Shown piece by piece: positions 14,876 to 24,176 of a stretch of 25,713 nucleotides of DNA. The stretch comes from a virus (taxonomy: Duplodnaviria; Heunggongvirae; Uroviricota; Caudoviricetes). Both the position numbers and the translations under genes were made by a program. The notes below the pieces were generated by a model. It was not told where the DNA came from, searched no databases, and worked only from the letters and a program-made list of their open reading frames with translations. The DNA is taken from IMG/VR virus record IMGVR_UViG_3300029877_000014. One strand, 5' to 3'. Position 1 is the stretch's first letter; each line of letters begins with the position of its first letter.

Positions 14876-16186
14876 TTAAATCCGAAGTGATGTGACTCTT
14901 CCGGTCGGTTTGACAATAGGGAATTGCTTAACGATGAAATAACCTCCGGCATCATTCGGGTGATCATTGCCAGATTTTTTATCAGGCTCCCCCTTCTCAT
15001 CCCAGACCTGTTGCTCCAGAGATTCGGCATATAACGGGCAACGCTTCACATTAACTTTATAGCGACGCTCACCATTGGCATTGCAGAACATTGCATTCAT
15101 TGAGTTAACGCGATCTTTTACTGGCGGGTTCGAGCTGTTCACCACAACGTTAAAACCAGCCTGCTTAAGCTGGGCTATATCCGTCGTACTTGCGTTACTT
15201 GATTTTCTGGAATCCCCGGAAGCATCTGGATAAATATAAATTTCCCTCACTTTCCGGTAATCATTCCCATCATACAGCCAGAAGCGTTCTTTAATGATGC
15301 GGATCATATCCGGCGTATCGTAGGCATTGATGATTTCAGTTACCGCACATGGAAGCCCCAAACGCAGCACATGGACGATTCCCGCCATCTTTCCAACGTT
15401 AAAATCCATCCCAATATAAATCGGCTCCCCTGGCTGCTCCACTTCTTCGCAATTATTCAGTTTCCGGTCAAACTGATGGTAAACAGTACCACTTGTCAGG
15501 TTAGTAAACTGTCCTCGCAGATAGGCTTTAATCAGCTCTGGAGGGTATGATTCAAGAAGCGAAGGAATGTAATCTGCTGGCAGGTTCTTTTCATTATCGA
15601 AAGTAGATGCCTGCACCAGACCATACAGTGAGGCCAGCTCTGTTTTTTCACGCACGGCTTTAACAAACTGCTCGTAGACAAATTTGAATCCTTCCGGCGT
15701 GGTTGTAACGTCAATACCGTTGCGAAGTCCATCAATCTTATAACGCATACGCGCAATTATCTTGCGCCACGCCGTTCTGGCTTTTTCCTTCGGCAAAATG
15801 TCCAGTTCATCCACCAACGCATTACCAATTTTGAAACCGACGATCGTTTGTGGCTTCTCCATCGATCTGCAGATAGTGGTTCCCCGATACTGGCGTCCGT
15901 AATAAAAGTGAACCTCTTTATTTCCCTCATTAATTTTTACGTTCAATCCCCAGTCAGCAGCAACTTCTTCCACTGTAGGGTAAAAAATATCGCGAATTTG
16001 GGGATACGTTGGCGCAAAATATCCCTGATTTATACCTGGATGCTCCCAAATCCCCTTGCATATGCCGCCACACCCAACCCATGTTTTGCCCGAGCCAAAA
16101 CCAGCAATATAGGCTTTAAATTTATGGGGCATTGAAAGAAATCGCGCCTGAGGCACATTAAGCGTCGGAGAGATCATCTTCATCAC
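14876..16186 (-). CDS. Terminase large subunit
   Basis: 436-aa ORF with a Walker A-like motif (AGFGSGKT) near the N-terminus and an acidic nuclease-type C-terminal half. Confidence 0.85.
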   Translation of the reverse strand: MMKMISPTLNVPQARFLSMPHKFKAYIAGFGSGKTWVGCGGICKGIWEHPGINQGYFAPTYPQIRDIFYPTVEEVAADWGLNVKINEGNKEVHFYYGRQYRGTTICRSMEKPQTIVGFKIGNALVDELDILPKEKARTAWRKIIARMRYKIDGLRNGIDVTTTPEGFKFVYEQFVKAVREKTELASLYGLVQASTFDNEKNLPADYIPSLLESYPPELIKAYLRGQFTNLTSGTVYHQFDRKLNNCEEVEQPGEPIYIGMDFNVGKMAGIVHVLRLGLPCAVTEIINAYDTPDMIRIIKERFWLYDGNDYRKVREIYIYPDASGDSRKSSNASTTDIAQLKQAGFNVVVNSSNPPVKDRVNSMNAMFCNANGERRYKVNVKRCPLYAESLEQQVWDEKGEPDKKSGNDHPNDAGGYFIVKQFPIVKPTGRVTSLRI

Positions 16187-17252
16187 TCCTTACTCTGGCA
16201 TCAACCACATTAATATTGATCGCCACAGGCTGGGGATGTTCATTATCTTCCACCGTTTCGATCTCTTTGCGCAGCTTCTGGTTTTCCATTCTGCGCCGTT
16301 CAATTTCCAGTTCCTGTAGCCGCTTATCTGCACATAAAGCCCCGCCAGCAGAAAGCAAACGCAACAATTCACGCCGGGCGGCAGCCTTATCCTCCAGCAG
16401 GATCTCAACGCCGAATTTTCCGAATTTTGCCCCTGCATATAATTGCCGCGCATCCCCATCAAGCAGAGTGGTATCAGCCATATAAAGCTGTCCCGTTCCC
16501 TCACCGCAGCACTTCGGGCAGTCCGGATTGGGTATGGCGTTATCAACAAAGCCGAGGCCTCCATATTCCGGTTCGGGTTTGCCATCTCTGGAAGCCTGCG
16601 CCGCTGCCTTGTCGAATTCTGCTATATCGCGCCACTGGTAGAGATGATTCTCGCCCCAGCAATAACGGCAGTTAACACGGCGAAATTGTGCAAGCTGATT
16701 GGGGTCGGCCAGGACAATAGCCATCAACTGACTCACTAGTAAATCCAGGTCTGCGGTATAGCGTTTCTGGTACTGATTGCGGAAGTAGCTGATAGCGCGA
16801 AAAACCCTGGCATTTCTAAGCATACGACTGGCGTTGCTGTTAGCTGTCGCACCTTGCCCCTCATAACCGGCTAGTCGGTACGCCTCTGTCGGCTTTTTAC
16901 CCTGAGCAACAAGCATCGCAAACTTAGCCTGCTGGTCAGAAATGCCGAATTCATCGGGACAGAACGAAAATTCCTCCGCGTCGCCCTCATTCAGGCCCGC
17001 ATCGAATACTGGCTTTTTTTCCTGAGATTTTTCGTTCCGCTTTTGTGCAGTCTGCGCAGATTTTTTCTGCGCACTTTTTTGCGCAGTTTTGCACATTTCT
17101 GTCTGCGCATTTTTCGGAGTTTTTTTGATGTAACGACGGGCTGTTGCGTAATTCAGTCCCCTTGCTTCACACCATGCCACCGGAGATATACCGGAGCGGG
17201 TGTATTCAGCAATATACTCCTGCTGCAACGCCCCCCAGTCCGGTCTGCTCAT
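16158..17252 (-). CDS. Terminase small subunit (N-terminal HTH, low-complexity Lys/Gln/Ala linker, Terminase_2-like core)
   Basis: 364-aa ORF directly upstream of the large terminase; contains ...KPTEAYRLAGYEGQGATANSNASRMLRN..., typical of small terminases as I recall the family. Confidence 0.6.
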   Translation of the reverse strand: MSRPDWGALQQEYIAEYTRSGISPVAWCEARGLNYATARRYIKKTPKNAQTEMCKTAQKSAQKKSAQTAQKRNEKSQEKKPVFDAGLNEGDAEEFSFCPDEFGISDQQAKFAMLVAQGKKPTEAYRLAGYEGQGATANSNASRMLRNARVFRAISYFRNQYQKRYTADLDLLVSQLMAIVLADPNQLAQFRRVNCRYCWGENHLYQWRDIAEFDKAAAQASRDGKPEPEYGGLGFVDNAIPNPDCPKCCGEGTGQLYMADTTLLDGDARQLYAGAKFGKFGVEILLEDKAAARRELLRLLSAGGALCADKRLQELEIERRRMENQKLRKEIETVEDNEHPQPVAININVVDARVRSDEDDLSDA

Positions 17253-17255
17253 CAG

Positions 17256-17507
17256 TTAGTCCTGATTTTTATCCACCCTGAGTAGTTCGCGCAGAGCAAA
17301 GGCATCCCCTTTTCTGGCAAGCTTAAACAATGCCGCTCGTAACTCGGCTTCACCTTTCGCTCTGCCCTTACGGATGGCCGCATAAAAATCTGTCATTGCT
17401 TCCCGATTTTCTTTCAGTCGGTTCAGATCAACATCCAGAACGTCAGCGATTTGTTGTGCAGTCATCCGGCACGCTGCCAGAGACTCGACTTTCGAATACG
17501 GAATCAT
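17256..17507 (-). CDS. Small hypothetical protein (83 aa, possible HTH)
   Basis: ORF overlaps the 3' end of the 317-aa gene by 65 nt, so the true start may be an internal Met (e.g. MTAQQIADVLDV...). Confidence 0.3.
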   Translation of the reverse strand: MIPYSKVESLAACRMTAQQIADVLDVDLNRLKENREAMTDFYAAIRKGRAKGEAELRAALFKLARKGDAFALRELLRVDKNQD

Positions 17508-18396
17508 TTGTCACCCCCATTGATATGCAGGGTGTCTTCTTCCTGTATTTTTCGTGAAGGATTTTTACTGCAGCGTTGTTCCAGGTGACCTGATGGTGAA
17601 TGCGTTTATGGCTGGCACCCATCAGTGAGATTTTTACGCACGACGGCGCATACATGACGGAGTAAAAACTTTTAACGTAGGTTCCGGAATCCAGATACAG
17701 CTCGGTCATTCCGCCGCTGTTTTTCTGCGTCTGTTTCTGCCCTAACTGGACAGCACCGATCGTCATAAACAATTCACCACAGCGACCGAGATTCGTGTAC
17801 GTATTCACATCCTCGTTAATGCGCCCCATGAATGAGAACGGTCGATCAACCGAACAGATAAAGCTGTTCATTGCCTTGCGTTTCACCCACGAAGCATGGC
17901 CGCCATTGTCACCAAGAAAATCCCCGCCCTGCGACATAGCGATGGAAAGAGCAGGTATTGATTCGTAGTACGCCAGCATTTCAGAAAGGATCGCATCCAG
18001 TTTCCTTATCGGAAAATAGGCCTGGTCATAGTTGCGATCCACCCGAAACTGGAACTCGTGATAATCATCATCGAGCTGAATGAAGTATTTACACCCGACC
18101 AGTTTTGCCAGGTCGAAACAGGCATTACGGGCGTAAAAAATTGAGCGGCGGTCACAGAAATTATCGGCTTCGTCAAAACGACTGGCGATATCGGCTTTGG
18201 AAAACACCAGCACCTGTTCACCAAATTCAGCCATGTACTGATTCCGTGTCTTATCTTCATCATCAACAACGATAAAAATTTTCCCGGTATAGCCAGCACG
18301 ACGCAACGTCCGGTAAGTCAGAACTTTGTCCGGTCGCCCGTGAGTCAGAATAAAGGCGCAAAAATCATCACGCATATTCCTCCTCCTCACCACCAT
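17443..18396 (-). CDS. Hypothetical protein, 317 aa; weak resemblance to a GT-A-type nucleotide-sugar transferase (DxD-like QLDDDYHEF)
   Basis: Long ORF tightly coupled to the upstream ParB-like gene. The Rac ydaY locus is, from memory, at the corresponding position. Functional guess is motif-level only. Confidence 0.45.
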   Translation of the reverse strand: MVVRRRNMRDDFCAFILTHGRPDKVLTYRTLRRAGYTGKIFIVVDDEDKTRNQYMAEFGEQVLVFSKADIASRFDEADNFCDRRSIFYARNACFDLAKLVGCKYFIQLDDDYHEFQFRVDRNYDQAYFPIRKLDAILSEMLAYYESIPALSIAMSQGGDFLGDNGGHASWVKRKAMNSFICSVDRPFSFMGRINEDVNTYTNLGRCGELFMTIGAVQLGQKQTQKNSGGMTELYLDSGTYVKSFYSVMYAPSCVKISLMGASHKRIHHQVTWNNAAVKILHEKYRKKTPCISMGVTNDSVFESRVSGSVPDDCTTNR

Positions 18397-19159
18397 GCAT
18401 GATCTCCACCATGCGCTGCGTCATCCGGACAAATCCATTTTCAATAGCCTGCTGATAATCAATGATCACCAGCGCCGACTCCTCGAAAAAACACTGAATT
18501 TCAGAGGGGGCGTGAGCGTAATAGTCCGCAATTCTGCTGAAATTAAACACCGTGTGACGTTCTGCCGCACACAGGAGGAATTTCTCAATATCAGGCTCAA
18601 GGGACGCCGAACGTATCCGGCTGATCAGCTCCTGAGTTTTCGTATCGTCGTACAGTTCACTGATATCCGGTTTACCGCCCGACGGCTCATAAACAGGCGT
18701 ATCAATTTTCGTCGTATACGGCTCCTCCTCATTTCCTGTACCGGGCAAAACATCCGTCAACAGTTCATCAATTTCTGTCGGGATGAAGCCTGTCAGGGAG
18801 ACATCAAAATCAGCATTGATTAGGTCCGACAGCTCCATCCGCAACAGATCTTCATCCCAGCCAGCATTCATCGGCAGGCGATTATCTGCCAGGCGGTACG
18901 CCTTTTTCTGCTCATCCGTCAGGCCAGACAGAACAATGACCGGAACAGAATCCATTTTGAGCATTTCAGCCGCCATAACACGACCGTGACCCGCAATAAT
19001 TTCGCCCTTTTCGTCAATCAGCACCGGATTAGTCCAGCCGAATTGCTTAATACTTTCTACCAGTTGTGCCACCTGCTCAGGGCTGTGCGTCCTGGCGTTG
19101 TGCGCATACGGTGACAATTCTTGTAATGGGCGATAGACTATCTTTAATTTCTCGCTCAT
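18368..19159 (-). CDS. ParB-like nuclease-domain protein (ParB/Srx N-terminal fold)
   Basis: 263-aa ORF with ...NPVLIDEKGEIIAGHGRVMAA..., the GxxR-type ParB N-terminal motif; acidic C-terminus. Confidence 0.75.
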   Translation of the reverse strand: MSEKLKIVYRPLQELSPYAHNARTHSPEQVAQLVESIKQFGWTNPVLIDEKGEIIAGHGRVMAAEMLKMDSVPVIVLSGLTDEQKKAYRLADNRLPMNAGWDEDLLRMELSDLINADFDVSLTGFIPTEIDELLTDVLPGTGNEEEPYTTKIDTPVYEPSGGKPDISELYDDTKTQELISRIRSASLEPDIEKFLLCAAERHTVFNFSRIADYYAHAPSEIQCFFEESALVIIDYQQAIENGFVRMTQRMVEIMHGGEEEEYA

Positions 19160-19296
19160 ACAGCCTTGCTTTATGAATAAAACGCACCCCAGCAGCCAGT
19201 GCTACTGGGGACGGAGGGGTTGCTGGTAAAGTTAGGTATTGGATCAATGAGTGAGTCAACATAATATTAAACTCACAATTATAAATCAGCCATATA

Positions 19297-20754
19297 TTAG
19301 GAGCGCCAAAAAAAACCTGAAAACAATATAATAACAGGATAAATTTCAAGGCGACCAAGAATCATAGCTATGCACATTAAACATTTTGCAATGTCATTAA
19401 GCACTCCGAATGACGATGCAGTAGCCCCAAAACCTAATCCCATATTATTAATACATGCAGCCACTGTTGCAAATGATGTAAGAAAATCATATCCCATACC
19501 ATTTAACACCAGTATAAAAAACACCGTGAAGAGAGTATAAAGAAAAAAGAAACTCCATACAGACCTCATTACACGATCTGTAACTATCTTCCCTCCTACA
19601 TTTACACTCAACAACGCTCTGGGATGAGAAAGCTGATTTATCTCGTGTTTGCTTTGTTTGAAAAGTATAAGAAATCGAAGTGACTTAATTCCACCACAAG
19701 TTGAACCTATACATCCCCCAAAGAAACTTGACAACAGCAAAAACACTATCGTGTGCGTGGGCCAACTTGCATAATCCTGCGTAGCTAAACCATTATCAGT
19801 GAGCATGGAGCTGGCAAGAAAAAACGAATGAATAAAACTTCCATGCAAGTCATACATACCTATATGCCAGACCTGGAAAGAGGTAACAATGATCACCCCT
19901 AAGGCTATTAACAGAAAGAAACGAAGTTCAATATCTCTGATTAAAGGTTTTATCGTTTTCCTGCTAATAACAATATACCAAAGAGTGAAGTTGAAAGCCG
20001 ATAGCAGGGAAAAAGAACCAGCCACCAGCTCAACCAAATAGTTATTAAAATATCCGATACTCTCGCTATGAGTTGAGAAACCACCAAGCGAAACTGTGGA
20101 AATCCCGTGACAAATAGCATCAAACAAAGGCATTCCTGCAAGTCTATAACAGACAATACAAGCAATACCTAATAAAGAATAAGTTATCCACAGTGTCCGT
20201 GACGTATCGGCCAGGCGGGGAGTGAGTTTGTCATCCTTAAATGGCCCCGGCATTTCTGACTGATAAAGCTTTGCACCACCAATACCCAATAATGGCAATA
20301 CAGCAACCGCCAGAACAATAACTCCTAAACCACCTATAAAATTTAACTGTGACCGATAGTACAAATATGCCCGAGGTAATGAACTAACATCATCAATTAC
20401 AGTTGCTCCTGTTGTTGTTATTCCAGAAACCCCTTCAAACAGAGCATCAATGAACGTTAAATTAAGTTCTGAGTCAATCCATAAAGGGAATGCACTAATA
20501 ACAGAAAACAAAATCCAAAACATTACAATTATAATAAACCCATCACGGGTACGTAATTGAATGCCAGATTTCTTAGTTGTATACCACGCTCCGCCACCAA
20601 TGCAAAAAAATATAACGAAAGTTATAAAGAAAACGAACAGGCTTTTTTCTTTATAAAACAATGCTACAACCATTGGTGGCAACATTGAAAGACTATAGAG
20701 CCAAACCAGGAACCCACACATATGAGTAACAACTCTTACATGAGATGTATTCAT
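19297..20754 (-). CDS. trkG: TrkH-family potassium uptake membrane protein TrkG
   Basis: Polytopic membrane protein starting MNTSHVRVVTHMCGFLVWLYSL... from the first ATG at 20754 (the track start at 20772 is TTG); matches E. coli TrkG as I recall it. Visibly AT-rich relative to flanking phage genes. Confidence 0.85.
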   Translation of the reverse strand: MNTSHVRVVTHMCGFLVWLYSLSMLPPMVVALFYKEKSLFVFFITFVIFFCIGGGAWYTTKKSGIQLRTRDGFIIIVMFWILFSVISAFPLWIDSELNLTFIDALFEGVSGITTTGATVIDDVSSLPRAYLYYRSQLNFIGGLGVIVLAVAVLPLLGIGGAKLYQSEMPGPFKDDKLTPRLADTSRTLWITYSLLGIACIVCYRLAGMPLFDAICHGISTVSLGGFSTHSESIGYFNNYLVELVAGSFSLLSAFNFTLWYIVISRKTIKPLIRDIELRFFLLIALGVIIVTSFQVWHIGMYDLHGSFIHSFFLASSMLTDNGLATQDYASWPTHTIVFLLLSSFFGGCIGSTCGGIKSLRFLILFKQSKHEINQLSHPRALLSVNVGGKIVTDRVMRSVWSFFFLYTLFTVFFILVLNGMGYDFLTSFATVAACINNMGLGFGATASSFGVLNDIAKCLMCIAMILGRLEIYPVIILFSGFFWRS

Positions 20755-20891
20755 ATCTAAATATTCTTTCAATTATAACCACCTTGCTGCAATATTATGA
20801 TTATACTGTATAAAATTTAACTCCTCTTAGATCTTACTTCACTGTTCCTTATGAAACAATCATCAAAATGAATCATATTGTAGTTAAGATT

Positions 20892-21356
20892 TTACTTTAA
20901 ACACTGCTCGGTTATGTATTGCTGAGCACCTTCAAGTTGGGCCTGCATCATTACCAGTCGTTCCCGGAGGGTGAAATAATCCCGTTCAGCGGTGTCTGCC
21001 AGTCGGGGGGAGGCTGCATTATCCACGCCGGAGGCGGTGGTGGCTTCACGCACTGACTGACAGACTGCTTTGATGTGCAACCGACGACGACCAGCGGCAA
21101 CATCATCACGCAGAACATCATTTTCAGCTTTCGCATCAGCTAACTCCTTCGTGTATTTTGCATCGAGCGCAGCAACATCACGCTGACGCATCTGCATGTC
21201 AGTAATTGCCGCGTTCGCCAGCTTCAGTTCTCTGGCATTTTTGTCGCGCTGTTCTTTGTAGGCGATGGCGTTATCACGGTAATGATTAACAGCCCATGAC
21301 AGGCAGACGACGATGCAGATAACCAGAGCGGAGATAATCGCGGTTACTCTGTTCAT
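20892..21356 (-). CDS. Rz: Inner-membrane spanin Rz
   Basis: Start [21 protein letters not shown]... at 21356 forms an ATGA overlap with the endolysin stop; N-terminal TM helix then coiled coil. Confidence 0.8.
20951..21136 (-). CDS. Rz1: Outer-membrane lipoprotein spanin Rz1, embedded in Rz in the +1 frame
   Basis: 61-aa ORF entirely inside Rz: signal peptide with lipobox ...LVVVGC, then a proline-rich mature part ([16 protein letters not shown]). Confidence 0.75.
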
Positions 21357-21850
21357 TGCTGACCCCACAAACAGATTTCACGCTCAATCTCACGACGAGT
21401 CATGAGACCTTTCCATTGCTTACCGCCAGCATATGTCCAGCGACGTAGCTGATCACATGCGCCTTTGATATCGCCCTGGTTTATTTTGCGAAGAAGCGTC
21501 GATGTTCTGAAATTGCCAGCACCCACGTTGTAAACGAATGAGTAAAGAGCGCCGCGCGTTGTTTCCGGTATATCGACTTTGATGTACGGGTTAATTTGTC
21601 TGGCGACCGTGGCAAGGTCTTTATTCAGGAGGGCTTTGCATTCTGCTTCGGTATACGTTTTACCGGGAATGATGTCTTTTCCGGTGTGTCCGTGACATAC
21701 AGTCCATACACCAACGATATCTTTATATGGTATGTAGCTGACACCTTCCAGACCATCGTTACCACTTGGGCCAGTGATTAACACTGATGCTATAGCAATT
21801 GCTCCGCCACCAATAGCAGCAGCAACGGCTTTTCGTAATGATGGAGGCAT
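21353..21850 (-). CDS. R: SAR endolysin (lysozyme with N-terminal signal-anchor-release domain)
   Basis: [39 protein letters not shown]... : weakly hydrophobic Gly/Ala-rich N-terminus followed by a lysozyme catalytic region; matches phage 21 R as I recall it. Confidence 0.85.
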
Positions 21851-22065
21851 TATTCACCTCTCGCAGCCTTGCGCTTATCTTCTTTAATCTTGAAATAAAG
21901 GTTTGTCAGGTACGTCAGCAGGCCAAATACCAGACTACCCAGCACACCGATTGCAGCCCACTGTGACGGAGTTACTCTATCGAGCAACTGTAAAAACCAG
22001 TAGCCAGCACTGCCTGCGGAGGTGCCATAGGCGACACCCGTTGTTAACTTATCCATGGATTTCAT
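21850..22065 (-). CDS. S: Pinholin S with dual-start motif (71-aa antiholin / 68-aa holin)
   Basis: [28 protein letters not shown]... from the ATG at 22065 with RBS GAGGTGGGGG; Met1-Lys-Ser-Met4 dual start; two TM segments. The track's start at 22158 is an upstream extension. Confidence 0.8.
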
Positions 22066-22336
22066 AACCCCCACCTCGCAGATGCGGGCGCTGTGTAATG
22101 GAAACAAAAAATGGCCACCAGCGGCCCGTAAAAAACACCCCGTCAAAAGCACCGGCATCCGCAGATGCCCTTTGCGTGGCGTTATTTGATGCGCGCCAGA
22201 TGTGGCGCAAAGAAATGAAATAAGACTTATCGAAAATTAAGGTCAATTTGATGATTTAAACCACTTCTGAAGCTTAGTAGTATGAACATGTCCCCAGAAG
22301 GGGGCCAATACTTATTATTCTTCATGGACTTTGTCC

Positions 22337-23346: not shown

Positions 23347-23889
23347 TCAAGCCGTTTTTTGAGCGAATGATTCTCGCATGGGAATGTATAGCGCATACTC
23401 AGCAACGGCCAACCAATTAGCAATTCGCTTTTCGCATGTGCTAAAACACCACTCTGGGTGTGCATCATTTAGCAATTCAGCCATTTTGCGTTTGGTCATC
23501 CCCCGCCCCTCATACCGTTGCCGAAGGACGCTAATCAATCCTGGATGCTCTGCCAGCACCTCACTTATGACCCGATCAATACATAACGCCTCTGCATCAG
23601 TACAATGCGCCAGCCAGCTCTTTTGCTTACCGTTAATCATATCCCGCAAAAAAGCCTCAAGTTCAGACTTGTTCAGACCTGCTTTTTTCATCCTCCGGAG
23701 CGCCTCGTTAATTGCCGTTTTTGTCAGCTTTTTAGAGGCCAACAACTGGTTGAACATATTCCCCGTCTTACCGCCGCCAATATACGACCAGCGCCCCCAC
23801 ATGCGCAGTTTTCCCTGAATCCAGACACTTTCCAGCGTGGTGAGACGAAGGTGTTCCCCGCTTTTGCCTGTATTTGTTGGGTAAATCAT
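23347..23889 (-). CDS. Q: Late-gene antitermination protein Q
   Basis: Start at ATG 23889 (MIYPTNTGKSGEHLRLTTLESVWIQGKLRMWGRW...) with ATGA overlap to the upstream gene; the track's start at 24009 is an upstream extension. Sits immediately before the tRNA/lysis region; Cys/His-containing C-terminal part. Confidence 0.7.
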   Translation of the reverse strand: MIYPTNTGKSGEHLRLTTLESVWIQGKLRMWGRWSYIGGGKTGNMFNQLLASKKLTKTAINEALRRMKKAGLNKSELEAFLRDMINGKQKSWLAHCTDAEALCIDRVISEVLAEHPGLISVLRQRYEGRGMTKRKMAELLNDAHPEWCFSTCEKRIANWLAVAEYALYIPMRESFAQKTA

Positions 23890-24176
23890 AAATAACCTTC
23901 CTTTCTCCAGATTTCTTGCGTGCGAAAAACACCTTCTGCATGCATCAGGCGTAAATCTTCTTTGGTGTAATCGCTTGTTTTTACCCGCCCGTCGATTAAA
24001 TCGTGGCATGAGCTACAGGCAATCGCCGCCTGCATATCGTGTGGTTTTGTCGCTGTTCCGCACGTTCCCGCCAGTCGGTAATGCGCCAGCACAGACGTTT
24101 CCGGATCGTGATTGCAGTAGCCAAGAATTCTGACGGTGCACATCCGCCCCCGCGCCGCTTTACGTAAATCCACCAT
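23886..24176 (-). CDS. NinG/YbcO-like zinc-binding protein (DUF1364-type)
   Basis: 96-aa ORF with two Cys pairs (CTVRILGYCNHDPE ... CSSCHDLIDGR), resembling DLP12 YbcO as I recall it; translationally coupled on both sides. Confidence 0.55.
   Translation of the reverse strand: MVDLRKAARGRMCTVRILGYCNHDPETSVLAHYRLAGTCGTATKPHDMQAAIACSSCHDLIDGRVKTSDYTKEDLRLMHAEGVFRTQEIWRKEGYL

What the first reader, a model, noticed from the sequence alone, without database searches (positions are those of the whole stretch)
17443..19159. ParB-like nuclease-domain gene translationally coupled to an unknown 317-aa gene with a DxD-like motif, inserted between trkG and the terminase genes
The ParB N-terminal fold (GHGR-type motif) is read directly from the 263-aa protein. 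Its stop is 2-29 nt from the start of a 317-aa protein with FILTHGRPDK, IVVDDEDK and QLDDDYHEF segments, suggestive of a GT-A-type nucleotide-sugar transferase but with none of the methyltransferase or PAPS-reductase motifs usually paired with phage ParB-like proteins. Placement directly ahead of the packaging genes suggests a role on phage DNA (modification, pac recognition or anti-restriction). From memory, the corresponding genes in K-12 Rac are ynaK and the pseudogene ydaY, neither with a known function.
Basis: partly seen in the sequence, partly recalled or inferred. Interest (0 to 1): 0.6.

Follow-up and report, generated by a model that had tools for sequence, protein, structure and literature searches.

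The report
Phage glycosyltransferase with obligate ParB-like partner
Just ahead of the DNA-packaging genes of an E. coli Rac-type prophage sit two overlapping genes, a sugar-transferring enzyme of a family known to decorate phage DNA and an acidic ParB-like helper protein, and this pair turns out to be conserved in phages of many bacterial phyla and of archaea although nobody knows what it glycosylates.

Summary
Both genes lie on the minus strand. A 263-aa ParB/Srx-fold protein (18368-19159) overlaps by 8 nt (ATGCGTGA) a 310-aa protein (17443-18375; the 317-aa ORF starts too early).

The "unknown" protein belongs to a named family: Pfam PF20691, TET-associated glycosyltransferase (TAGT), E 8e-35. 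It has a GT-A fold and a DDD motif.

The pairing is general. All 71 diverse genome loci with an intact GT and readable upstream DNA carry the partner, as do 80/80 viral loci found by searching with the partner. The pair also occurs in Lactobacillus, Nocardia, Vibrio, Porphyromonas and haloarchaeal viruses.

The constant partner element is not the ParB fold. It is a ~120-aa C-terminal domain with no Pfam model, which in some phages occurs alone. The ParB module is the one fused to phage DNA methyltransferases.

The pair usually sits directly upstream of unrelated terminase types. No 5hmC- or 5hmU-making enzyme accompanies it.

Best reading (about 0.5): a late-expressed, two-subunit, nucleotide-sugar-dependent DNA glycosyltransferase with an unknown acceptor.

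One detail is wrong: K-12 ynaK is a fragment of the ParB-like gene, but ydaY is not the GT.

Verdict: new variant of a known kind; interest about 0.6.

The parts
18368..19159 (-). Gene for the 263-aa acidic ParB-like partner protein. The K-12 remnant of this gene is ynaK.
   Evidence: ORF. Pfam ParB_N above its cut-off. PHROG 620 at 8.5e-91. RefSeq WP_001291094.1 'ParB/Srx family N-terminal domain-containing protein'. pI about 4.5 and net charge about -27 in the family.
18755..19159 (-). N-terminal ParB/Srx (ParB-CTPase fold) module, aa 1-135.
   Evidence: A profile of 56 partner proteins matches Spo0J/ParB/Noc at 1.8e-12. Foldseek matches ParB-CDP 6sdk at 6e-7, plus Noc, PadC, KorB, Srx and SerK. 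In the alignment to Spo0J, N21-A-R23 lies on QPR, G57-H58-G59-R60 on GERR, and D92-N93 on EN. The same module is the N-terminus of phage DNA methyltransferases: phrog_498 at 1.2e-50 and PADLOC MTase_II at 2.2e-38.
18371..18739 (-). C-terminal GT-partner domain, aa 141-263. It starts with the motif Y148-T-x-K-I-x-x-P155-x-Y157-E-P, followed by a helical region.
   Evidence: No Pfam model, even at E<=5. Invariant Y148, P155, Y157, L195, R201, A211, Y214, E226 and D234 in 56-67 homologues. 1189 representatives of 50% clusters, almost all with this domain C-terminal in proteins of 250-300 aa. It occurs alone, without ParB_N, upstream of the GT in Vibrio phage pv27 and in L089, L129, L143 and L145. 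The AF2 model here is helical but of low confidence.
17443..18375 (-). Gene for the 310-aa TAGT-family GT-A glycosyltransferase (RefSeq WP_001204037.1).
   Evidence: Pfam PF20691 at 8.4e-35, 121 bits against a cut-off of 27.5. PHROG 842 at 1.2e-103. More than 8000 homologues, all PF20691. The AF2 N-terminal 150 aa are confident and GT-A-like. Foldseek hits GT-A enzymes in the PDB and viral TAGT proteins at 1e-19.
18064..18072 (-). Codons for D102-D103-D104, the DxD metal and nucleotide-sugar motif.
   Evidence: Invariant DDDY in 14 homologues down to 61% identity. The codons read atcatcatc on the + strand.
18368..18388 (-). Translational-coupling junction: Shine-Dalgarno-like GAGGAGGAGGAA, then the ATGCGTGA overlap of the GT start with the ParB stop.
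   Evidence: Minus-strand sequence read. The start is supported by homologue N-termini and by the RefSeq gene model.
17256..17465 (-). 69-aa ORF (83 aa from the upstream ATG at 17507) between the GT and terS. It overlaps the GT 3' end by 23 nt and resembles part of a small terminase subunit.
   Evidence: RefSeq WP_000126788.1. phrog_309 'terminase small subunit' at 8.3e-23. Sequence read. It recurs downstream of the GT in enterobacterial loci.
16158..17252 (-). Terminase small subunit (context: start of the packaging module).
   Evidence: Pfam Terminase_2 at 2.4e-8. phrog_51 at 2.4e-76.
14876..16186 (-). Terminase large subunit (context).
   Evidence: Pfam Terminase_6N at 3.7e-33 and Terminase_6C at 3.4e-10.
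19187..19210 (-). Terminator-like hairpin plus T-run after trkG, 28 nt upstream of the ParB-like start codon.
   Evidence: Scan: 10-bp stem with 7 G-C pairs, tail TGCGTTTTAT. No minus-strand promoter-like site lies between it and position 19159.

Best explanation
The interval encodes a two-subunit glycosyltransferase module in the Q-dependent late operon of a Rac-type lambdoid prophage.

The catalytic subunit is a 310-aa GT-A enzyme of the TAGT family (PF20691). Characterised members of this family add sugars to hydroxymethylated pyrimidines in phage DNA. It carries the family's Arg...DDD...ED catalytic signature, so it should use a nucleotide-activated sugar and a divalent metal.

The gene is translationally coupled to, and in nature never separated from, a strongly acidic partner protein. 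The partner's ~120-aa C-terminal domain is the constant element. I infer that this domain binds or activates the GT.

The partner's N-terminal ParB/Srx nucleotide-binding module is the same module that phages fuse to DNA methyltransferases. I infer that it gates or targets the enzyme on double-stranded DNA, as ParB-like proteins do for phage thymine dioxygenases.

The most likely job is post-replicative glycosylation of phage DNA just before packaging, to protect it in the next host.

**Shown:** family membership, fold, motifs, obligate gene pairing, position and distribution.

**Inferred:** physical complex, DNA as acceptor, timing and biological role.

The acceptor group is unknown, because no 5hmC/5hmU-producing enzyme accompanies the pair.
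For: **Catalytic subunit**
- PF20691 at 8.4e-35 and BFVD TAGT structures at 1e-19.
- GT-A hits in the PDB.
- Invariant R14, D38/D39/D41, DDDY102-105, NEDV187-190 and HH260-261. These match the R...DDD...ED[Y/F] motif reported for 5hmC-DNA GT-A enzymes and JGT (bioRxiv 10.1101/2023.12.21.572611).
- The T2/T6 gentiobiosyl-forming enzyme is PF20691 (PMC13216743).

**Pairing**
- 71/71 informative genome loci across phyla have the partner immediately upstream on the same strand.
- 80/80 loci in the reciprocal search do too.
- The pair is present in Lactobacillus c5, Nocardia NTR1, Porphyromonas phage005 and haloarchaeal HHTV-2.
- L129 carries the pair as a tandem duplicate.

**DNA link**
- The ParB_N module equals the N-module of phage DNA MTases.
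- The residues aligned with ParB phosphate-binding positions are kept.
- There is a precedent: ParB-like activators are required by phage 5mYOX on dsDNA (PMC13229309).

**Donor chemistry**
- In a subclade, a His-phosphatase plus cytidylyl/adenylyl-transferase-like enzyme is inserted between the two genes or fused to the partner.

**Timing**
- The pair lies downstream of the Q-like antiterminator, holin, lysozyme and Rz on the same strand. A terminator but no promoter-like site precedes it, and it is coupled into terS/terL.
- Terminase genes of unrelated families follow the pair in most loci.

**Element type**
- The pair is exclusively phage or prophage: 0 of 72,556 plasmids.
Against: - No hydroxymethyl-pyrimidine source was found. 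There was no recurrent TET/JBP or thymidylate-synthase-like gene among 300 neighbouring ORFs. None is annotated in the 31.8-kb phage c5 genome or in the SE11 Rac prophage. The known acceptor chemistry of the family therefore has no substrate here.
- The partner is very acidic (pI about 4.5, net charge about -27) and has no recognisable DNA-binding domain.
- The ParB_N module is dispensable in some phages.
- The ParB hydrolysis residues Q and E are replaced by N21 and H58.
- AF2 confidence is low for the GT C-terminal third and for the partner's C-domain. No complex or DNA-binding surface could be modelled.
- The closest PDB folds are protein or peptide glycosyltransferases, though at generic GT-A level.
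- The GT is truncated or lost in some Lactobacillus phages and in many E. coli strains, so it is not essential.
- No paper in the held library reports modified DNA for any phage carrying the pair.
Confidence: 0.5

Rival explanations
1. Protein glycosylation. The GT glycosylates a protein rather than DNA. The most obvious candidate is its own partner, on the invariant tyrosines of the Y148-x6-P155-x-Y157-E-P motif, in the manner of glycogenin. Terminase or virion proteins made from the adjacent genes are other candidates.
For: - The top PDB fold matches are protein or peptide glycosyltransferases: COLGALT1, glycogenin and SunS/ThuS, at E about 1e-4.
- UniRef and PGAP name the family 'GREB1-related'.
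- Y148, P155 and Y157 are invariant in a segment modelled as unstructured.
- No hm-base source is present.
- The partner is acidic and has no DNA-binding domain.
- The pair is adjacent to structural and packaging genes.
Against: - The fold matches are generic GT-A similarity obtained from a model with a poor C-terminal third.
- The nearest sequence and structure relatives are phage TAGT proteins, whose characterised members act on DNA.
- The partner's N-module is the one fused to DNA methyltransferases.
- In Vibrio 191-kb phages the pair sits among replication genes, not structural genes.
Confidence: 0.15
2. Prophage-encoded defence or superinfection exclusion. The pair hyper-glycosylates the already hydroxymethylated or glucosylated DNA of invading phages such as T-even phages, and so disturbs their replication or exposes them to other defences.
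For: - TAGT enzymes of T2/T6 act on glucosyl-5hmC (PMC13216743).
- E. coli hosts such phages, and they would supply the missing acceptor.
- The idea is raised in bioRxiv 10.1101/2023.12.21.572611.
- The pair lies next to the trkG moron in about 16% of complete E. coli genomes.
Against: - There is no PADLOC defence-model hit for the GT.
- The pair occurs as the first genes after cos in Lactobacillus phage c5, for which no integrase or repressor is annotated, in 191-kb Vibrio phages and in a haloarchaeal virus.
- It lies in the late operon behind a terminator and has no promoter of its own, so it is probably silent in lysogens.
Confidence: 0.1
3. Packaging accessory. The ParB-like protein acts in pac/cos recognition, as a terminase cofactor, or in prophage DNA partition. 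The GT is then a passenger or modifies that machinery.
For: - The pair is positioned directly before terS/terL in most loci, even though the terminase families are unrelated.
- In Nocardia phage NTR1 the pair abuts terL with no annotated terS.
- In c5 the two genes are the first after cos.
Against: - The conserved element is the GT plus the C-domain, not ParB_N.
- There is no HTH or dimerisation domain, and the TIGR00180 partition-ParB model scores below its cut-off (38.5 against 58.45).
- No parA is present.
- In Vibrio phages the pair is not near terminase.
- The slot ahead of the terminase genes, at the start of the late morphogenesis genes, may simply be a common insertion site for accessory genes (my inference).
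Confidence: 0.08
4. Lysogenic conversion of the cell envelope. The GT would glycosylate LPS or teichoic acid, as TarP or the Gtr systems do.
For: Phage GT-A DNA glycosyltransferases structurally resemble the prophage teichoic-acid GT TarP (bioRxiv 10.1101/2023.12.21.572611).
Against: - No membrane segment, flippase or bactoprenol-GT partner is encoded.
- The same pair, at 40-60% identity, occurs in Gram-negative, Gram-positive and archaeal hosts with unrelated envelopes.
- It sits in the late operon, not a lysogeny module.
Confidence: 0.03

Closest known systems
TET-associated glycosyltransferases (Pfam PF20691, TAGT), including the GT-A enzymes in 5mYOX/C5-MTase gene clusters that glycosylate 5hmC in DNA
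   Same: - Clear Pfam membership.
- GT-A fold.
- The conserved Arg...DDD...ED active-site signature.
- Phage-encoded.
   Different: - No TET/JBP (5mYOX), C5-methyltransferase or thymidylate-synthase-type gene accompanies it.
- It forms a tight subfamily: 40-60% identity across phyla and domains of life, against about 25% to other phage TAGTs.
- It has an obligate partner domain.
- The motif reads EDV rather than ED[Y/F].
T2/T6 beta-glucosyl-HMC-alpha-glucosyltransferase (the PHROG 842 label given to this protein)
   Same: It belongs to the same Pfam family according to PMC13216743, and the PHROG 842 profile matches at 1e-103.
   Different: - tblastn finds no T-even phage sequence even at E<=5.
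- No alpha-GT or dCMP hydroxymethylase is present, so glucosyl-5hmC, that enzyme's substrate, does not exist here.
- The label is an annotation transfer, not evidence of function.
ParB-dependent phage thymine dioxygenases (5mYOX plus cognate ParB; PNAS 2026, PMC13229309)
   Same: - A phage DNA-modifying enzyme encoded next to a ParB-like protein that has a nucleotide-binding domain plus a C-terminal domain but no DNA-binding domain.
- Pairing is cognate-specific.
- The putative NTP-binding residues are conserved.
   Different: - The enzyme here is a glycosyltransferase, not a dioxygenase.
- Those ParBs are about 195 aa with a short dimerisation CTD. This partner is 250-300 aa with a distinct 120-aa domain that can occur without ParB_N.
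- Activation has not been tested here.
ParB_N-DNA methyltransferase fusion proteins of phages and prophages (phrog_498; PADLOC MTase_II PDLC03229)
   Same: The N-terminal roughly 140 aa are the same module, at 1.2e-50 and 2.2e-38.
   Different: The methyltransferase domain is replaced by the GT-partner domain, and the catalytic activity is supplied in trans by the downstream GT.
Chromosome/plasmid partition ParB (Spo0J, Noc, KorB)
   Same: ParB-CTPase fold of the N-domain.
   Different: - No HTH DNA-binding domain, no C-terminal dimerisation domain and no ParA.
- TIGR00180 scores below its cut-off.
- The GERR box is GHGR and QPR is NAR.

Membership tests
Pfam PF20691 TAGT (TET-associated glycosyltransferase) | Match to the family HMM above the curated gathering score | tested here: met
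   121 bits against a cut-off of 27.5, E 8.4e-35, aa 15-229 on profile positions 4-205/205. All listed homologues carry PF20691.
Pfam PF20691 TAGT (TET-associated glycosyltransferase) | GT-A fold with a DxD motif and the Arg...DDD...ED[Y/F] active-site signature | tested here: met
   The AF2 N-terminal half is confident. Foldseek hits GT-A enzymes and viral TAGT models at 1e-19. R14, D102-D104 and E188-D189 are invariant. The residue after ED is V, not Y/F.
Pfam PF20691 TAGT (TET-associated glycosyltransferase) | Genomic association with a TET/JBP dioxygenase or another source of 5-hydroxymethylpyrimidine | tested here: not met
   There is no recurrent TET_JBP or thymidylate-synthase family among 300 flanking ORFs of about 50 loci. 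None is annotated in phage c5 or in the SE11 Rac prophage.
Pfam PF20691 TAGT (TET-associated glycosyltransferase) | Sugar transfer to a modified base in DNA | not testable with these tools
   This needs nucleoside LC-MS or enzyme assays.
T2/T6 beta-glucosyl-HMC-alpha-glucosyltransferase | Close sequence relationship to the T-even enzyme, and presence of its substrate pathway (dCMP hydroxymethylase, alpha-GT) | tested here: not met
   tblastn at E<=5 recovers no T-even record. No such genes occur in the window or in the SE11 prophage.
ParB/Srx N-terminal domain (PF02195, ParB-CTPase fold) | HMM match above the cut-off, and the fold | tested here: met
   28.9 bits against 26.3. 39/56 partner homologues match. 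The family profile matches Spo0J at 1.8e-12. Foldseek matches 6sdk at 6e-7.
ParB/Srx N-terminal domain (PF02195, ParB-CTPase fold) | Nucleotide-binding residues (box I QPR, box II GERR, box III EN) | tested here: inconclusive
   Aligned residues are N21-A-R23, G57-H58-G59-R60 and D92-N93. The positions aligned with the phosphate-binding residues are mostly kept in the family, while the hydrolysis residues Q and E are replaced. Binding was not assayed.
Partition ParB (ParABS; TIGR00180) | HTH DNA-binding domain, C-terminal dimerisation domain and an adjacent parA | tested here: not met
   TIGR00180 scores 38.5, below its cut-off of 58.45. No HTH or dimerisation Pfam domain is found. No parA is in the neighbourhood.
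ParB-dependent 5mYOX activators (PMC13229309) | Adjacent 5mYOX/TET-JBP gene, and a roughly 195-aa NBD plus short CTD architecture | tested here: not met
   No TET_JBP neighbour is present. ParB176 and ParB185 are 194-196 aa, against 263 aa here with a distinct 120-aa domain.
ParB_N-DNA methyltransferase fusions | Shared ParB_N module plus an N6/N4 methyltransferase domain | tested here: not met
   The N-module matches, but no methyltransferase domain is present.

The most novel reading that the evidence does not exclude
The pair is a self-sufficient DNA glycosylation system that needs no hydroxymethylated precursor. With its partner domain, the GT would attach a sugar directly to a canonical base, or to another native group of double-stranded DNA. 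That would be a kind of DNA modification not yet described. It would be spread through tailed phages of many bacterial phyla and of haloarchaea, and present in about one in six complete E. coli genomes.
Probability: 0.2. Interest if true: 0.85.

Novelty: new variant of a known kind. Interest (0 to 1): 0.6.

Why it matters
**An open question it could answer**

'Solitary' TAGT-family glycosyltransferases, which have no hmC/hmU-forming enzyme beside them, were recently flagged as unexplained. One study counted them in 288 of 753 GT-bearing phage genomes (PMC13216743). In a metagenome survey, about 65% of GT contigs lacked a neighbouring base-modification enzyme.

**What this analysis adds**

A large, highly conserved subset of these GTs is not solitary at all. 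Each is locked to a previously unmodelled partner domain. That domain is usually fused to the ParB module that phages also attach to DNA methyltransferases.

**Why it is testable now**

The pair is intact in the Rac-type prophages of about 840 complete E. coli genomes. Its function can therefore be tested with standard E. coli genetics and nucleoside mass spectrometry.

**What each outcome would mean**

- If DNA is the acceptor, the system would define a new route to glycosylated DNA and a second enzyme class that depends on a ParB-like helper.
- If a protein is the acceptor, part of a family currently annotated as DNA-modifying would need to be re-assigned.

Tried and rejected
1. **Winged-helix idea for the C-domain.** The secondary-structure order in the AF2 model suggested a winged-helix DNA-binding domain. 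I rejected it as unsupported. There is no HTH or other Pfam hit even at E<=5; only a weak, recurrent hit to PF23887 (L5 gp47-like) in 14/67 members. The domain is strongly acidic and the model confidence is low.

2. **Partner motif in cis in partner-less TAGTs.** hhalign aligned the partner's 'PxYEP' motif to an N-terminal stretch of the Aeromonas phage Aeh1 GT, at E 0.036 and probability 1.4%. Alignment of five members of that subfamily shows only M-P conserved, not YEP. I treat the match as chance.

3. **Rosetta-stone fusions of partner and GT.** None appeared among the 150 best C-domain hits. The longer proteins are ParB_N with N-terminal extensions. Long 'GT' hits in E. coli look like gene-calling artefacts or deletion fusions.

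4. **Structures of the conserved C-terminal regions.** AF2 with the permitted shallow alignments gave pLDDT below 50 for GT residues 216-310 and for most of the partner beyond residue 137. No complex could be modelled.

5. **Sequence search of the PDB with the GT profile.** No hit at E<=1.

6. **Defence-system libraries and plasmids.** The GT has no PADLOC match and no PLSDB plasmid match.

7. **Literature.** No paper in the held library describes the ParB-like/TAGT pair. The 2013 comparative-genomics paper that I believe defined TAGT (Iyer et al., Nucleic Acids Res; recalled from memory) is not held. I could not check whether it already noted this pairing.

8. **ParB176/ParB185 sequences for direct comparison.** Only their lengths are available in the supplements.


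Full report
**1. What is in the interval**

The window is a Rac-type lambdoid prophage of E. coli. The 2.1-kb stretch 17200-19300 matches 1610 of 5426 complete E. coli genomes at 90-100% identity. The syntenic region of strain SE11 shows the full prophage.

All genes discussed here are on the minus strand. In the direction of transcription the order is:
- DUF1367, YbcO and a Q-like antiterminator (23347-24009)
- holin (21850-22158), lysozyme (21353-21850) and Rz (20892-21368)
- trkG (19297-20772)
- the ParB-like gene (18368-19159) and the second gene (17443-18375)
- a 69-aa ORF (17256-17465)
- terS (16158-17252) and terL (14876-16186)
- portal, head and tail genes

A strong terminator-like hairpin (19187-19210) follows trkG. 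No promoter-like site lies between it and the ParB-like start codon. The pair therefore most probably depends on Q-antiterminated late transcription. This is inference from position.

**2. Check of the observation**

The quoted peptide segments are all present.

The 317-aa ORF begins at ATG 18396. Fourteen homologues down to 61% identity all begin MRDDF, as does the RefSeq model WP_001204037.1. The real start is therefore ATG 18373-18375 and the protein is 310 aa.

On the minus strand the junction reads GAGGAGGAGGAATATGCGTGATG. The GT start codon overlaps the ParB stop codon in ATGCGTGA and is preceded by a Shine-Dalgarno-like run. This is classic translational coupling by overlap, not a 2-29 nt gap.

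The GT 3' end overlaps the next ORF by 23 nt, and that ORF's stop codon lies 3 nt before the terS ATG. The whole set is a tightly packed operon.

In this prophage lineage (E. coli and the near-identical E. ruysiae and Shigella loci) the GT carries about 22 extra C-terminal residues that the other homologues lack.

**3. Identity of the two proteins**

*The second gene is not unknown.*
- It matches Pfam PF20691, 'TET-associated glycosyltransferase' (TAGT), at 121 bits against a cut-off of 27.5, E 8.4e-35.
- It matches PHROG 842 at 1.2e-103.
- More than 8000 database homologues all carry PF20691. Some sources name them 'GREB1-related protein'.
- The AF2 model is confident for residues 1-150 and shows a GT-A Rossmann-type core. 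Residues 216-310 are poorly modelled.
- Foldseek finds GT-A enzymes in the PDB (COLGALT1, glycogenin, SpsA, SunS/ThuS; E about 1e-4) and viral TAGT models at 1e-19.
- Invariant residues are R14, D38/D39/D41, D102-D103-D104-Y105, N187-E188-D189-V190 and H260-H261. These correspond to the R...DDD...ED[Y/F] signature described for phage GT-A enzymes that glycosylate 5hmC in DNA, and for the trypanosome base-J glucosyltransferase (bioRxiv 10.1101/2023.12.21.572611).
- The PHROG label 'beta-glucosyl-HMC-alpha-glucosyltransferase' comes from T2/T6, whose enzyme is in PF20691 (PMC13216743). tblastn finds no T-even sequence even at E<=5, so the label is only an annotation transfer.

*The first gene has two parts.*

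Residues 1-135 are a ParB/Srx (ParB-CTPase) fold:
- Pfam ParB_N scores just above its cut-off.
- A profile of 56 family members matches Spo0J, ParB and Noc structures at 1e-12 to 1e-10.
- Foldseek matches ParB-CDP at 6e-7, followed by Noc, PadC, KorB, sulfiredoxin and serine kinase SerK.
- In the alignment to Spo0J, N21-A-R23 lies on the QPR box, G57-H58-G59-R60 on GERR, and D92-N93 on EN. The positions that bind phosphate in ParB are largely kept across the family. The two hydrolysis residues are replaced.
- This module, including its linker helices to about residue 144, is the N-terminal module of phage DNA methyltransferases: phrog_498 at 1.2e-50 and PADLOC 'Type II methyltransferase' at 2.2e-38.
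- It is not a partition ParB. TIGR00180 scores below its cut-off. There is no HTH or dimerisation domain and no parA.

Residues 141-263 form a separate domain:
- It has no Pfam model, even at E<=5, and no PDB relative by sequence.
- It starts with an invariant linear motif, Y148-T-x-K-I-x-x-P155-x-Y157-E-P. A helical region follows, with invariant L195, R201, A211, Y214, E226 and D234.
- The whole protein is very acidic: pI about 4.5, net charge about -27.

**4. The pairing is general, and the C-domain is its constant element**

A search with a GT profile returned 79 loci from one-genome-per-species contigs. They include Proteobacteria, Bacteroidota, Firmicutes, Verrucomicrobiota, Spirochaetes, Acidobacteriota, Saccharibacteria and archaeal MAGs. 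The GT is 42-60% identical to the E. coli protein across these.
- Every locus with an intact GT and readable upstream DNA (71 of 71) has an ORF with the C-domain on the same strand upstream. In nearly all of them it directly abuts or overlaps the GT start. The few larger gaps in the automated table are mostly domain-picking artefacts, and the real exceptions are L126 and L135 at about 1.6 and 0.8 kb.
- The reciprocal search with the C-domain profile returned 80 viral loci, and all 80 have the GT downstream.
- The C-domain family has 1189 representatives at the 50% cluster level. Almost all are proteins of 250-300 aa with the domain at the C-terminus. Longer ones are still ParB_N plus C-domain.

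Isolated viruses with the pair include:
- Lactobacillus phages c5, phiLdb, LL-Ku and phi jlb1
- Nocardia phage NTR1
- Porphyromonas phage005
- 191-kb Vibrio phages
- the haloarchaeal virus HHTV-2

In Vibrio phage pv27 and in four MAG loci the partner is the C-domain alone, 135-155 aa with no ParB_N. L129 carries two tandem copies of the unit [C-domain gene + GT gene].

The obligate partner is therefore the C-domain. ParB_N is a frequent but dispensable addition.

**5. Neighbourhood**

Among 150 ORFs taken from the three genes downstream of the pair in about 50 loci, terminase large subunits of at least four unrelated Pfam families are found (Terminase_6N 18, Terminase_3 9, T7-type 8, GpA 2). 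Small subunits and portals also occur.
- In c5 the pair is the first two genes after cos.
- In NTR1 it abuts terL.
- In Porphyromonas phage005 it precedes terS, terL and portal.

Among 150 upstream ORFs there is no recurrent TET/JBP or thymidylate-synthase family and only three methyltransferases. The rest are replication, recombination, late-regulator and lysis genes. These family tables list only the commonest families, so single occurrences cannot be excluded.

The complete 31.8-kb c5 genome and the SE11 Rac prophage have no annotated enzyme that could make 5hmC or 5hmU.

The GT has no match in 72,556 plasmids and no PADLOC defence model.

In one subclade a 331-aa enzyme lies between the two genes (L222) or is fused to the partner (L223, 560 aa). 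It combines a histidine-phosphatase domain with a cytidylyl/adenylyl-transferase-like domain of the TagD/RfaE-II type. This fits with the module consuming a nucleotide-activated donor.

**6. How it most likely works**

*Shown:*
- a TAGT-family GT-A enzyme with an intact catalytic signature
- a gene-level obligate partner
- the partner's ParB_N module shared with DNA methyltransferases
- late-operon placement
- restriction to phages and prophages

*Inferred:*
- The C-domain binds or activates the GT. Both conserved regions that AF2 cannot fold alone, GT residues 216-290 and the partner beyond residue 137, are candidates for a co-folding interface.
- ParB_N adds nucleotide-gated access to double-stranded DNA.
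- The enzyme glycosylates phage DNA after replication and before packaging.

Two pieces of literature frame this. Phage thymine dioxygenases need a cognate ParB-like protein to act on dsDNA (PMC13229309). The ParB-CTPase fold binds various NTPs and is often fused to methyltransferases in prophages (bioRxiv 10.1101/2025.10.10.680097).

The weak point is the acceptor. Known family members glycosylate hydroxymethyl groups or sugars already attached to them, and nothing here makes such groups.

I put DNA glycosylation at about 0.5. The rivals are:
- protein glycosylation, for example of the partner's invariant tyrosines: 0.15
- a prophage defence acting on the hm-DNA of invading phages: 0.10
- a packaging accessory: 0.08
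- envelope conversion: 0.03

**7. Comparison with what is known, and novelty**

The protein is a member of PF20691, but it fails the family's eponymous context feature, the TET association. It is not the T2/T6 enzyme. Its partner is not a partition ParB, nor the roughly 195-aa 5mYOX-activating ParB.

Recent papers explicitly leave 'solitary' TAGTs unexplained. One of them mentions ParB-like and terminase neighbours only in passing.

I found no description of the obligate C-domain partner in the held literature. I could not read the 2013 paper that I believe defined the family, so prior mention of the pairing cannot be excluded.

I classify this as a new variant of a known kind.

**8. Other points about E. 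coli**

K-12 keeps only the first 85 or so codons of the ParB-like gene (ynaK), joined to ydaY by the known Rac deletion. In the intact prophage ydaY is a tail-region gene. About 840 complete E. coli genomes keep the whole terS-GT-partner stretch, which makes the system directly testable.

Noticed in passing
L222 4326-5321; L223 3578-5260; also L220, L229, L237: In one subclade a 331-aa enzyme sits between the partner gene and the GT. It combines His_Phos_1 (7e-36) with CTP_transf_like (3.5e-14; TagD/RfaE-II-like nucleotidyltransferase). In L223 it is fused to the C-terminus of the ParB-like partner, giving 560 aa. It may make a special nucleotide-activated donor. The GT in these loci has EDD in place of DDD.
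   Followed up: partly
L129 4460-6903: Two tandem copies of the unit [C-domain-only partner + TAGT GT]: 4460-4798/4791-5600 and 5597-6001/5926-6903. This suggests that each GT needs its own partner, and perhaps that sugars are added in sequence.
   Followed up: partly
L243 5432-5875 (Vibrio phage pv27); L089, L143, L145: Here the partner protein consists of the C-domain alone (135-155 aa, no ParB_N). In the 191-kb Vibrio phages the pair lies among primase, exonuclease and helicase genes rather than next to terminase.
   Followed up: yes
window 17256-17507 (-): A small ORF of 69-83 aa overlaps the GT 3' end. It matches part of a small-terminase PHROG (phrog_309, 8e-23) and lies immediately before the 364-aa terS. 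In this prophage lineage the GT has about 22 extra C-terminal residues that exist only because of this overlap.
   Followed up: partly
window 18906-19300 and E. coli genomes: Many E. coli strains carry different deletions that end inside the ParB-like gene. They give truncated 'ynaK' genes or apparent fusions to Lom, tail or head genes. K-12 is one such case.
   Followed up: partly
window 19187-19210 (-) and 19297-20772 (-): trkG sits as a self-contained insert between the lysis genes and the pair. It ends in a strong terminator-like hairpin only 28 nt before the ParB-like start codon, so late transcripts must read through this hairpin to reach the pair and the packaging genes.
   Followed up: no
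L001 30859-34118 (E. coli SE11 Rac prophage, outside the window): A DUF262-domain protein and a TPR protein lie in the early region of the same prophage. From memory, DUF262 is the ParB-like N-domain of GmrSD-type enzymes that cut glycosylated DNA. This looks like a possible defence insert in a prophage that also carries a putative DNA glycosyltransferase.
   Followed up: no
L244 3-3408 (Nocardia phage NTR1): The partner (Orf1) and the GT (Orf2) are followed directly by the terminase large subunit, with no annotated small subunit between them.
   Followed up: no
L248 1288-3976 (Vibrio phage Kuja): A different TAGT subfamily has about 100-aa N-terminal extensions and no partner gene. In Kuja it occurs as two tandem paralogues next to a 'DNA end protector' gene.
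   Followed up: partly
window 18395-18823 (+): A 142-aa ORF lies antisense to the ParB-like gene. It has no support from homologues or annotation and is probably a by-product of the coding strand's composition.
   Followed up: no
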